Source: a virus (Duplodnaviria; Heunggongvirae; Uroviricota; Caudoviricetes). From it: DNA of 8,365 nucleotides. Below, piece by piece: positions 6,001 through 8,365 of this stretch (the first letter of the stretch is position 1; every line of letters starts with the position of its first letter). Made by a program: the position numbers. The DNA lies in IMG/VR virus record IMGVR_UViG_2531839668_000012, positions 1-8,365 of that record; one strand, 5' to 3'.

Positions 6001-8365
6001 TCAGAACGGATGATATTGCAGAATTAGTTACGTACCGTTATTATCCTGCGCCCGGCCCTTTAGCTCAGTGGTGAGAGCGAGCGACTCATAATCGCCAGGT
6101 CGCTGGTTCAAATCCAGCAAGGGCCACCATCACATACCGCCATTAGCTCATCGGGATAGAGCGTCAGCCTTCGAAGCTGGCTGTGCGGGGTTCAAGTCCC
6201 CGATGGCGGTCCATTATCAGCATCATGCGTTGTTAGCTCAGTCGGACAGAGCAATTGCCTTCTAAGCAATCGGTCACTGGTTCGAATCCAGTACAACGCA
6301 CCACACTTATTTTCCAGGCTCGCTTCGGCGGGCCTTTTTTGTATCTGCGCCACGCCCGGCGCATATCAACCACAGAGCCTTTCGGGGGTGAGCTTACGGA
6401 GTGGTCAGTGTGACTTTCTCTGTGGGCAGATCGCTCCCGGGCGTTGGCTCACCCACCCAAAGGAACGTCACGATGTTTGTATTTTTGGTAAAAAAGCCCG
6501 CCGAGCGGCAGTGGAAATTAAAAAGTTTGAGAAACGTGATCTGGCACAGGCGGTTATTAATGCTGCCTATCTGGTGGCCTATGCAGATGGTGAATGTGAG
6601 GCTTCAGAGAAAGCGAAGATCGAGCAGGTCTTGCGTAACCAGCCTGCGTTGTCCGCGTTTACGTCAGAAATTAATGCGATTAGCGCAACCATTATCGGTC
6701 AGCTGGATACGAACTTTAAAACTGGTCGTCGAGCGGCATTGCGTGAAATTGAAGATGTGAAACACGATACGCGTGAAGCGGAAGATGTGCTGGATGTGGC
6801 GGTGGCCATTGCGGAGGCAGACGGCGAAATTGAGCCGGAAGAGCGCAAGGTGCTGGAAGAGATTGCCGGTGTTCTGGGTCTTCGTCTGGAGAATCACCTG
6901 TGACGGTAAAACTGCGCCTGGCTGTGGCTGCACTCCTGCTGTTTCTGGTGGTGATGGTGGATTTCACCAGCAGAATCATGTCGGTGCTGGCGGATGGGGT
7001 GCTGGTCTGCGGCATTGTGGTATTGCTGTAGCCGGTGATAAAAAGAAACAGCCTGCATAATGCTTGATTTTTTTATTTGCTGTTTATTAAAAATACTACT
7101 GCATGGTGAATCCCCCTGTGCGGAGGGGCAATCAGCAAGTAGGTATATGTGATAATCGCGGATTCAGGTGCTGATACTGAATTCACCGGGAGGCACCCGG
7201 CACCATGCAAGAAAAAGAATGTGCATGCAAACATGCCCCTCTCCGGAGGGGCATTTTTTATGGGTAAAAAATGCCCGAATGGGTTCGGGCAATAGCATGA
7301 GATACTGATATTGTTGTGTTGTTATCGTGTGGATTTTAACCAGGGTTTATCAGGCTGCGCAACTGCGTGGCCTTTTTTCATTTCTTGGGCTGTAGTCCCC
7401 GTGTGTCATTCAGGCTTCCGGACTACAGCCCACTCCATATCTGATTTAATACACTATCCCGGCCGGGAGGAATAATGACATTTAAACATTATGATGTTGT
7501 CAGGGCGGCGTCGCCGTCAGACCTTGCGGAAAAGCTGACACACAAACTGAAAGAGGGCTGGCAGCCGTTTGGTAGTCCGGTGGCCATAACCCCTTATACC
7601 CTGATGCAGGCGATTACAGCAGAAGGTGATGTGGTGGTCAGTGGTGCAACTGAGCCGGATTGGTACTACGTCATCGTACTGGCCGGGCAGTCCAATGCCA
7701 TGGCTTACGGTGAAGGGCTTCCGCTGCCGGATTCATACGATGCTCCGGATCCGCGCATTAAACAGCTGGCGCGCCGCAGTACAGTGACGCCGGGTGGGGC
7801 TGCCTGCAGATATAACGATATTATTCCGGCCGACCACTGCCTGCATGATGTGCAGGATATGAGTACGCTGAATCATCCGAAGGCAGACCTGAGCAAAGGG
7901 CAGTACGGCTGTGTCGGCCAGGGGTTACATATTGCCAAAAAACTGCTCCCGTATATCCCGAATAACGCGGGGATCCTGCTGGTACCATGCTGTCGTGGTG
8001 GTTCGGCATTCACCCAGGGCGCGGAGGGGACATTCAGTGCGGACACGGGGGCCAGCCAGGATTCGGCACGCTGGGGTGTGGGTAAACCGTTATATCAGGA
8101 CCTGATTGCGCGCACTAAAGCTGCATTACAGAAGAACCCGAAAAATGTGTTGCTGGCGGTGTGCTGGATGCAGGGAGAGTTTGACATGAGCGCCGCCACC
8201 CACGCACAGCAACCTGCGCTGTTTACAGCCATGCTGACACAGTTTCGTGCTGACCTCTCCGTGTTTAACGCGCAGTGCCATGGTGGCAGTGCTGCAGATG
8301 TGCCGTGGATTTGTGGTGACACGACGTATTACTGGAAAAATCATACGCTACCCAGTACGACACCG

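What the first reader, a model, noticed from the sequence alone, without database searches (positions are those of the whole stretch)
6473..6520. TerB-like gene: best start codon is in the -1-shifted frame across an A_AAA_AAG tract
The only good initiation site (AAGGA, 8 nt, ATG at 6473) is in a different frame from the TerB domain. The two frames meet at GTA AAA AAG (6488-6496), which contains the A_AAA_AAG heptamer known from dnaX programmed -1 frameshifting. A -1 slip there, or an A7 instead of A6, would give MFVFLVKK fused to ARRAAVEIKKFEKRDLAQAV and the TerB domain. Without a shift the ATG frame yields an Arg-rich 96-aa product. Options: programmed frameshift, homopolymer phase variation, inactivating 1-nt deletion, sequencing error, or a weak in-frame GTG start at 6388 or 6511. 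Stimulatory elements are weak (no upstream SD-like element, only a short GC hairpin downstream).
Basis: seen in the sequence. Interest (0 to 1): 0.6.

Follow-up and report, generated by a model that had tools for sequence, protein, structure and literature searches.

The report
One-base deletion in prophage tciA gene
The frame break at the start of this prophage TerB-like gene (tciA) is an ordinary inherited one-base deletion in codon 3, not a programmed frameshift; the slippery-looking A tract is two conserved lysine codons that the deletion put into slippery phase.

Summary
AAGGA, an 8-nt spacer and ATG 6473 lie one frame away from the TerB domain, and A_AAA_AAG (6490-6496) is in -1 slippery phase.

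The cause lies upstream of the A tract. Intact relatives read ATG TTT GGT ATT TTT GGT AAA AAA GCC (MFGIFGKKARR..., 143 aa). The window has lost one G of the GG doublet at 6479. Its A6 tract has the same length as in the in-frame alleles and encodes Lys7-Lys8. The N-terminus MFGxF.KK is conserved as far as phage P1 TciA.

The same deletion allele occurs in 5 of 5,426 complete E. coli genomes and in 3 IMG/VR contigs, so it is a real allele and not a read error. No upstream SD-like or downstream structural stimulator was found, the two-frame layout is not conserved, and no compensated G+A7 allele exists.

Across the family the first nine codons are indel-prone. A common GG+A7 allele is also out of frame from the ATG and often carries a nonsense codon as well.

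Best reading: a loss-of-function or strongly reduced allele of a dispensable prophage accessory gene. Incidental -1 slippage could restore a near-wild-type protein at an unknown, probably low, level.

RefSeq annotates the broken gene as intact, as a 140-aa CDS starting at ATT 6481. Interest is low.

The parts
6054..6303 (+). Three prophage tRNA genes upstream of tciA (CAT anticodon, called Ile by PGAP; Arg-TCG; Arg-TCT). This is the late-operon position downstream of antiterminator Q.
   Evidence: ARAGORN, Rfam, RefSeq annotation of the identical record.
6316..6341 (+). Intrinsic-terminator-like hairpin plus T run after the last tRNA, ahead of the tciA leader.
   Evidence: 8-bp stem, 6 GC pairs, tail TTTTTGT.
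6460..6464 (+). Shine-Dalgarno AAGGA of tciA, 8 nt upstream of the ATG. It is conserved in all alleles examined.
6473..6475 (+). Ancestral ATG start codon of tciA. In intact relatives it begins MFGIFGKKARR... (143 aa).
   Evidence: One search shows the N-terminal alignment reaching phage P1 TciA. In one search the phrog_632 profile matches from position 1.
6479..6479 (+). Site of the lesion. There is a single G where in-frame alleles have GG (codon 3, GGT to G-T). This 1-nt deletion separates the ATG from the TerB frame.
   Evidence: Alignments. The exact allele is found in 5 complete genomes and 3 IMG/VR contigs.
6490..6496 (+). A6+G tract. It is ancestrally Lys7-Lys8 (AAA AAA) plus the G of Ala9. 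Only in the deletion allele does it fall into A_AAA_AAG phase relative to the ATG. It is a possible site of incidental -1 slippage.
6473..6760 (+). Out-of-frame ORF read from the ATG without a shift (95 aa, 15 Arg). It matches no Pfam family.
6481..6903 (+). TerB-domain reading frame as RefSeq annotates it (WP_024173621.1, 140 aa, ATT start, 16 nt from the SD). It is residues 4-143 of the ancestral protein.
   Evidence: Pfam TerB.
6900..7031 (+). TciB-like / DUF3927 small membrane-protein gene. Its GTG start overlaps the tciA stop (GTGA). It is shortened to 43 aa by TGG to TAG at 7029-7031, against 55 aa in relatives.
   Evidence: Two of the deletion-allele loci still carry TGG.

Best explanation
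The gene is the tciA (TerB-family) accessory gene of a lambdoid prophage. It sits with its small partner tciB-like (DUF3927) gene downstream of antiterminator Q and a tRNA cluster. Its ancestral form starts at the ATG at 6473 and encodes 143 aa beginning MFGIFGKK.

In the lineage of this window one G of the GG doublet in codon 3 was deleted. Ribosomes starting at the only good initiation site now read a 95-aa nonsense product, and the TerB domain is left without a canonical start. The A tract is unchanged: it is the pair of conserved lysine codons 7-8. It looks like a dnaX slippery heptamer only because the upstream deletion shifted its phase.

The allele is therefore a null or strongly reduced allele of a dispensable prophage gene. 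A small amount of near-wild-type protein (MFVFLVKK-ARR...) may still arise by unprogrammed -1 slippage on A_AAA_AAG or by weak initiation at ATT 6481.

Shown: the deletion, its inheritance, the ancestral start, the absence of stimulators and the lack of conservation of the two-frame layout. Inferred: loss or strong reduction of the protein, and the low level of any rescue.
For: (1) Alignment with relatives places the frame break at a missing G in ATGTTTG[G]TATT. The closest in-frame allele has the same A6.

(2) Intact alleles are annotated as a 432-nt CDS from that ATG in O26, O157:H7 and other strains. The exact intact 72-mer is the best match in 103 complete-genome records.

(3) The N-terminal motif M-F/L-G-x-F-x-K-K and a length of about 141-144 aa hold across annotated homologues down to 39% identity: E. 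coli phage P1 (two TciA variants) and phages of Erwinia, Pseudomonas, Klebsiella and Salmonella. PHROG 632 aligns from profile position 1 to residue 1.

(4) The deletion allele is identical in five independently sequenced complete genomes from the USA, Spain, Korea (two) and Belgium and in three IMG/VR contigs. It has no private substitutions and differs by 2-3 nt from the nearest intact haplotype, so it is young.

(5) There are no stimulators. Fold z-scores are +0.74 and +0.83. No Rfam frameshift element matches. The only SD is 25 nt upstream of the heptamer.

(6) Decay is visible around the gene and in its relatives.
- tciB-like has a premature TAG in 6 of the 8 deletion-allele sequences, window included.
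- The prophage has lost everything between N and Q.
- Relatives carry independent lesions: GG+A7 in 47 of 104 loci, 30 of them also with E46*; one GG+A6 locus with E46*; and truncated remnants with A5.
Against: The TerB frame downstream of the lesion is still fully open in all eight sequences of the deletion allele. This is expected for a young mutation, but it is also what rescue would predict.

One carrier (strain C325) holds the allele in a prophage that looks complete, from replication genes through to terminase. The allele is therefore not confined to decaying remnants.

A_AAA_AAG is among the best E. coli -1 motifs. A bare lysine A tract near a start codon rescued 1-nt deletions at 25-60% in an overexpression vector (PMC1851650). 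'Null' is therefore not proven.

No expression data were available.
Confidence: 0.85

Rival explanations
1. Incidental rescue. The deletion is real, but -1 tandem slippage of tRNA-Lys on A_AAA_AAG, five codons after the ATG, restores the frame often enough to keep TciA functional at a reduced level. The product would be MFVFLVKK-ARR..., differing from wild type at four residues. This overlaps with the best explanation and differs only in how much protein is made.
For: The heptamer is in the right phase and there is no stop between the ATG and the tract. A_AA.A_AA.G is among the most efficient E. coli motifs (PMC4066793). C_AAA_AAA near a start codon rescued 1-nt deletion constructs at 25-60%, with homogeneous A6 mRNA (PMC1851650). 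The TerB frame is intact in all carriers. The allele is carried by an apparently complete prophage.
Against: Without stimulators, heptamers in a lacZ reporter gave only 2-10 times a background of 0.055% (PMC4066793). No stimulator is present here. The allele is too young for any test of selection, having no private substitutions. The partner gene has acquired a premature stop in most carriers.
Confidence: 0.25
2. Programmed, selected -1 ribosomal frameshifting of the dnaX type. In this reading the two-frame layout is the designed way to express or regulate TciA.
For: Only the in-phase A_AAA_AAG and the good SD and ATG in the other frame.
Against: The layout is confined to one young allele: 5 of 5,426 complete genomes and 3 of 104 scanned loci. 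All other relatives are single-frame from the same ATG or carry different lesions. There is no SD-like element 10-14 nt upstream and no significant downstream structure. No Rfam element matches. The unshifted product is a 95-aa peptide with no family match.
Confidence: 0.02
3. The RefSeq gene model is right. TciA is made as a 140-aa protein from ATT 6481 in the TerB frame, so the gene is functional without any recoding.
For: PGAP annotates WP_024173621.1 from this ATT in all five genomes. Only residues 1-3 of the ancestral protein would be lost. AUU can initiate in E. coli (infC, pcnB; bioRxiv 10.1101/063800).
Against: AUU initiates at about 1-2% of AUG even in an optimal context. Here it lies 16 nt from the SD and 8 nt downstream of a well-spaced ATG that competes for the same ribosomes. 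The model is a homology-driven choice and rests on no evidence of initiation.
Confidence: 0.08
4. Homopolymer phase variation. The A tract toggles in length and switches tciA on and off.
For: Tract length does vary in the family. A5, A6 and A7 are found in 2, 55 and 47 of 104 loci. A7 alleles are very common in EHEC genomes.
Against: In the window's lineage all eight sequences are A6. The frame is broken by the G deletion, not by the tract. No G+A7 'on' version exists in 5,426 genomes. No gene-body haplotype carries two tract states, and A7 alleles form an old, diversified group that often has an added nonsense codon. This looks like one inherited insertion and not rapid switching. A6-A7 is short for a contingency tract (general knowledge).
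Confidence: 0.04
5. Sequencing or assembly error at this position.
For: The window differs from its closest public record by two other single-base deletions that break annotated ORFs (2294 in exo, 8342 in the esterase). The source sequence may therefore contain indel errors.
Against: At 6479 the window is identical to NZ_CP051001.1, to four further complete genomes from different laboratories and countries, and to three IMG/VR contigs.
Confidence: 0.02

Closest known systems
TciA of phage P1 and the TerB-family 'tellurite resistance' proteins of phages (Pfam PF05099, PHROG 632), with the TciB-like partner (DUF3927, PHROG 1470)
   Same: The TerB domain scores above the Pfam threshold. The intact allele is colinear over its full length with PHROG 632. 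It is 42-52% identical to P1 TciA variants and shares their N-terminal motif and length. A tciB-like gene follows with an overlapping stop and start.
   Different: In the window the N-terminus is cut off from the domain by a 1-nt deletion in codon 3, and the partner gene is shortened by a nonsense codon. The function is assigned only by homology, as the P1 annotation itself states.
E. coli dnaX programmed -1 frameshift signal (A_AAA_AAG with an upstream SD-like element and a downstream stem-loop)
   Same: An identical heptamer in the correct phase relative to the initiating frame.
   Different: There is no upstream SD-like stimulator, no significant downstream structure and no conservation of the layout. 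In ancestral alleles the tract is ordinary Lys-Lys coding sequence.
Incidental -1 frameshifting on the attB1 lysine tract of pDEST17, which rescues 1-nt deletion constructs (Belfield et al. 2007, PMC1851650)
   Same: A bare A6-type lysine tract a few codons after the start, downstream of a 1-nt deletion. A slip there restores the downstream ORF without dedicated stimulators.
   Different: That case used T7-driven overexpression of a vector and was measured at 25-60%. Here nothing has been measured, and reporter data for motifs without stimulators are below 1%.
Frameshifted or nonsense pseudogenes of accessory genes in decaying lambdoid prophages of EHEC
   Same: There is a single-base indel relative to intact paralogues. 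Neighbouring genes are truncated (N, Q, methyltransferase) and the prophage has a large internal deletion. The same gene carries other independent lesions in other prophages.
   Different: RefSeq does not flag this allele as a pseudogene. It gives it an ATT start. One carrier prophage looks complete.

Membership tests
dnaX-type programmed -1 ribosomal frameshift site | X_XXY_YYZ slippery heptamer in phase with the incoming (zero) frame | tested here: met
   GTA AAA AAG lies at 6488-6496 in the frame of ATG 6473.
dnaX-type programmed -1 ribosomal frameshift site | Upstream SD-like stimulator roughly 10-14 nt 5' of the heptamer | tested here: not met
   6473-6489 reads ATGTTTGTATTTTTGGT and contains no GGAG- or AGGA-like element. 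The only SD (6460-6464) lies 25 nt upstream of the heptamer.
dnaX-type programmed -1 ribosomal frameshift site | Stable downstream stem-loop or pseudoknot about 5-9 nt 3' of the heptamer | tested here: not met
   The minimum free energy of 6497-6566 is -13.7 kcal/mol against a shuffle mean of -15.6 (z = +0.74). For 6440-6540, z = +0.83. The short GC hairpin at 6498-6511 starts 1 nt after the tract and has a C-A mismatch on the + strand. There is no Rfam hit.
dnaX-type programmed -1 ribosomal frameshift site | Two-frame arrangement conserved among homologues | tested here: not met
   Homologues are single-frame from the same ATG. The arrangement is limited to one young allele.
dnaX-type programmed -1 ribosomal frameshift site | Frameshift product demonstrated experimentally | not testable with these tools
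   This needs a reporter assay, proteomics or ribosome profiling.
TerB / TciA family (PF05099, PHROG 632) | TerB domain above the curated threshold | tested here: met
   58.4 bits against a 24.4 cut-off, residues 54-166 of the 6388-6903 ORF.
TerB / TciA family (PF05099, PHROG 632) | Full-length colinearity, including the conserved N-terminus, reachable from a canonical start codon | tested here: not met
   The intact relative matches PHROG 632 at 1-142 of 143. In the window the ATG is out of frame, and the TerB frame has only ATT 6481 or poorly placed GTG codons.
TerB / TciA family (PF05099, PHROG 632) | tciB-like small membrane-protein gene immediately downstream | tested here: met
   DUF3927 scores 45.6 bits, and the intact form matches PHROG 1470. 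The stop and start overlap as GTGA. The gene is truncated by TAG at 7029-7031.
TerB / TciA family (PF05099, PHROG 632) | Tellurite, colicin or phage resistance, or a cell-division phenotype | not testable with these tools
   The function is annotated by homology only, even in the P1 record.
Homopolymer-tract phase-variable (contingency) gene | Tract length differs among close relatives | tested here: inconclusive
   At the family level A5, A6 and A7 occur in 2, 55 and 47 loci. Within the window's allele all eight sequences are A6.
Homopolymer-tract phase-variable (contingency) gene | On and off lengths occur on the same haplotype (recurrent switching) | tested here: not met
   None of 37 gene-body haplotypes carries two tract states. 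No G+A7 allele is present in 5,426 genomes.
Frameshift-mutated gene (pseudogene or hypomorph) | Indel relative to intact orthologues that disconnects the start codon from the domain | tested here: met
   GG to G at 6479.
Frameshift-mutated gene (pseudogene or hypomorph) | Reproducible in independent assemblies, so not a read error | tested here: met
   Five complete genomes and three IMG/VR contigs.
Frameshift-mutated gene (pseudogene or hypomorph) | Loss or strong reduction of the protein | not testable with these tools
   Inferred from start-codon and SD geometry and from published efficiencies.

The most novel reading that the evidence does not exclude
The first nine codons of prophage tciA (ATG TTT GGT ATT TTT GGT AAA AAA G) might act as an indel-prone dial and not merely as a mutational target. 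In both shifted frames the T/G-rich stretch still encodes a short hydrophobic peptide followed by Lys-Lys. The G-deleted allele could then keep low-level TciA through -1 slippage on A_AAA_AAG, and the common A7 allele through a TTG start four bases after the ATG. This would give heritable low-expression states of a costly or toxic accessory gene.
Probability: 0.07. Interest if true: 0.45.

Novelty: already known. Interest (0 to 1): 0.13.

Why it matters
The value is mainly curatorial. Three RefSeq protein models of one gene exist: 143 aa from ATG, 142 aa from TTG and 140 aa from ATT. The last two hide single-base indels in the first nine codons, so the 140-aa WP_024173621.1 model probably describes a broken gene.

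It is also a caution for sequence-only scans. An in-phase A_AAA_AAG next to a 'wrong-frame' start is what any 1-nt deletion upstream of two AAA lysine codons followed by a G produces, and a single alignment with a close relative resolves it.

If incidental slippage did rescue the gene, it would be a natural example of translational correction of an indel. That would be of modest interest.

Tried and rejected
1. My first survey of tract length was biased. The pattern demanded GCCCGCCGAG after the tract and returned only A6. A reverse BLAST with the intact allele then revealed a large class of hits one base longer. I repeated the scan with a relaxed pattern, which uncovered the A7 and A5 alleles. 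The earlier conclusion that the tract is invariant was withdrawn.

2. Two scans of genome contigs (one genome per species) found nothing. This exact N-terminal DNA version is absent from the species-representative genomes.

3. I looked for a compensated G+A7 allele in complete E. coli genomes and found none.

4. I looked for a stimulatory RNA structure or a known frameshift element and found none.

5. I tried a crude test of selection using private polymorphisms. A7 alleles gave 6 non-synonymous to 5 synonymous changes; in-frame GG+A6 alleles gave 5 to 11. The direction fits relaxed constraint, but the counts are too small to conclude. The G-deleted allele has no private substitutions at all.

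6. GTG 6388 and GTG 6511 were considered as starts and rejected. Neither has a usable SD: GGGG abuts GTG 6388 directly, and nothing precedes 6511. No homologue starts at either position.

7. Transcriptional slippage was considered. A6 is short for it (general knowledge), and the A6 mRNA in the pDEST17 case was homogeneous.

8. One paper search failed because the phrase was too long and was repeated.

9. The large protein-database searches and structure prediction were not used, because the DNA-level comparison answered the question.

Full report
**Observation**

- AAGGA (6460-6464) is followed by an 8-nt spacer and ATG (6473).
- This ATG is in the +1 frame relative to the ORF 6388-6903. That ORF carries a TerB domain (Pfam PF05099, 58.4 bits against a 24.4 cut-off).
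- In the ATG frame the codons GTA AAA AAG (6488-6496) form A_AAA_AAG. A -1 slip there would yield MFVFLVKK+ARRAAVEIKK... (143 aa).
- Without a shift, the ATG frame gives a 95-aa product (not 96) with 15 Arg and no family match.
- AAAAAAG itself is common in the window: 7 copies against 2.2 expected.

**What the comparison shows**

The window matches the chromosome of E. coli O157:H16 strain 98-3133 apart from two single-base deletions elsewhere (see 'Context'). It lies in a prophage inserted next to mlrA.

The 751 bases around the gene have relatives in 892 of 5,426 complete E. coli genomes, usually in several prophages per genome. In O26, O157:H7 and other strains RefSeq annotates a 432-nt CDS that starts at the same ATG, behind the same SD.

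The alignment is unambiguous:
- Intact alleles read ATG TTT GGT ATT TTT GGT AAA AAA GCC CGC, which translates as MFGIFGKKAR.
- The window reads ATG TTT G-T ATT TTT GGT AAA AAA GCC.

One G of the GG doublet in codon 3 is missing, leaving the single G at 6479. The A tract is A6 in both the intact and the deleted allele. The tract is therefore not the lesion. It is Lys7-Lys8 followed by the G of Ala9.

The N-terminus M-F/L-G-x-F-x-K-K and a length of about 141-144 aa are shared by annotated homologues in phage P1 (TciA) and in phages of Erwinia, Pseudomonas, Klebsiella and Salmonella, down to 39% identity. PHROG 632 ('tellurite resistance', moron category) aligns from its first position to residue 1 of the intact protein. 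The ATG at 6473 is the ancestral start.

**Is it real?**

The exact 71-nt stretch of the window occurs in five complete genomes from different laboratories and countries: 98-3133, C325, MFDS1001074, Z1323PEC0012 and STECUZB006. It also occurs in three IMG/VR contigs.

The exact intact 72-mer is the best match in 103 records.

The deletion allele has no private substitutions and lies 2-3 nt from the nearest intact haplotype. It is a young, inherited allele and not a read error.

RefSeq does not flag it as a pseudogene. It models a 140-aa protein (WP_024173621.1) that starts at ATT 6481.

**Programmed frameshifting**

The defining features beyond the heptamer are absent.
- No SD-like element lies between the ATG and the tract.
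- The downstream RNA folds no better than shuffled sequence (z = +0.74 and +0.83).
- Rfam finds no frameshift element.
- The two-frame layout is not conserved.

The heptamer is in slippery phase only because of the upstream deletion.

**A correction made during the work**

My first scan for tract-length variants required GCCCGCCGAG after the tract and found only A6. A reverse search then exposed many hits one base longer. A relaxed scan gave the following counts for 104 metagenome and IMG/VR loci:

| N-terminal state | Loci | Reading frame |
|---|---|---|
| GG+A6 | 52 | in frame from the ATG |
| GG+A7 | 47 | out of frame from the ATG |
| G+A6 (the window type) | 3 | out of frame from the ATG |
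| GG+A5 | 2 | truncated remnants |

The A7 allele is the commonest version in O157:H7, O111 and O103 genomes. Of the 47 A7 loci, 30 also carry an E46* nonsense codon. RefSeq calls those copies pseudogenes with an internal stop.

The 15 A7 loci with an open TerB frame correspond to copies that RefSeq models as a 142-aa protein from a TTG four bases after the ATG (WP_001434745.1).

No gene-body haplotype carries two tract states. No compensated G+A7 allele exists in complete genomes.

The first nine codons are thus a repeated target of single-base indels. The pattern is one of inherited lesions, not of fast switching.

Private polymorphisms give 6 non-synonymous to 5 synonymous changes on A7 alleles, and 5 to 11 on in-frame alleles. 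This suggests relaxed constraint, but the numbers are too small to rely on.

**Context**

The gene pair tciA and tciB-like (DUF3927, PHROG 1470) lies after the truncated antiterminator Q gene, a truncated methyltransferase gene, three tRNA genes and a terminator. A sialate-esterase-like gene follows it.

The tciB-like gene starts at a GTG that overlaps the tciA stop (GTGA). In the window it is cut to 43 aa by TGG to TAG at 7029-7031. Two deletion-allele contigs still have TGG there.

The prophage in the window has lost everything between N and Q. In strain C325, however, the same tciA allele sits in a prophage that looks complete.

**Mechanism adopted**

A 1-nt deletion in codon 3 uncouples the TerB domain from its only good initiation site. 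The result is a null or strongly reduced allele of a dispensable prophage accessory gene.

Residual protein could come from two sources.
- Unprogrammed -1 slippage on A_AAA_AAG. Motifs without stimulators gave 2-10 times a background of 0.055% in a lacZ reporter (PMC4066793). An overexpressed vector tract gave 25-60% (PMC1851650).
- Initiation at ATT 6481. AUU initiates at about 1-2% of AUG even at optimal spacing (bioRxiv 10.1101/063800). Here it is 16 nt from the SD and competes with the ATG.

The amount of residual protein is not known.

**Verdict**

The finding is an ordinary frameshift mutation in a known gene family. Interest is low, apart from the annotation issue and the small chance of incidental translational rescue.

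Noticed in passing
window 2294 and 8342: The window lacks one base at each site relative to its otherwise identical public record NZ_CP051001.1. At 2294 GG becomes G inside lambda exo, splitting the 226-aa gene into ORFs 2277-2696 and 2017-2304. At 8342 an A is lost inside the SASA/NanS-like esterase. Both genes are intact in the public record, and exo is also intact in STECUZB006. These are either assembly errors in the source or private mutations.
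   Followed up: partly
window 7029-7031: The tciB-like (DUF3927) gene has TGG to TAG, giving 43 aa instead of 55. Two contigs with the tciA deletion still have TGG, and one locus with intact tciA has TAG. All four allele combinations therefore exist, which points to recombination or recurrence.
   Followed up: partly
relatives: L067, L069, L126, L127, L128 and 47 IMG/VR loci: A very common tciA allele has GG+A7, one extra A in the lysine tract. It is out of frame from the ATG. In 30 of the 47 loci it also carries E46*. RefSeq models the open versions as a 142-aa protein from a TTG four bases after the ATG (WP_001434745.1), and the rest as pseudogenes.
   Followed up: yes
window 6481-6903: RefSeq protein WP_024173621.1 rests on an ATT start codon chosen by homology. 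This hides a frameshifted gene in five complete genomes.
   Followed up: yes
window 7075-7265 (+) and 7266-7327 (-): There are strong Rfam matches to sRNA families just downstream of tciB-like: STnc100 (144.9 bits) and, on the opposite strand, AgvB, the anti-GcvB sRNA (96.5 bits). Each ends in a terminator-like hairpin.
   Followed up: no
window 4086-4144 (-): The lambda cIII thermoregulator element (Rfam RF01804, 88.5 bits) lies at the start of the cIII gene.
   Followed up: no
window 1-54 and about 5253-5613: The prophage sits next to mlrA; from general knowledge this gene is also called yehV and is a known Stx-phage insertion site. The prophage has an internal deletion that joins a fragment of N (minus strand) to the C-terminal part of Q. 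Immunity, replication and nin genes are missing. Other carriers of the same tciA allele have different left-hand contexts, including IS insertions or complete replication modules.
   Followed up: partly
window 6054-6129: ARAGORN calls the first tRNA Met (anticodon CAT), while RefSeq calls it Ile. This is the usual ambiguity for a lysidine-modified Ile tRNA.
   Followed up: no
window 6498-6511 (-): On the minus strand, the GC hairpin after the A tract together with the complement of the tract scores as a weak terminator-like site (5-bp stem, then GCTTTTTT). No minus-strand gene ends there, so it is probably chance.
   Followed up: no
L089 and L113 (IMG/VR): These are truncated tciA remnants. 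Only about the first 20 codons remain, with an A5 tract, fused to unrelated AT-rich sequence.
   Followed up: partly
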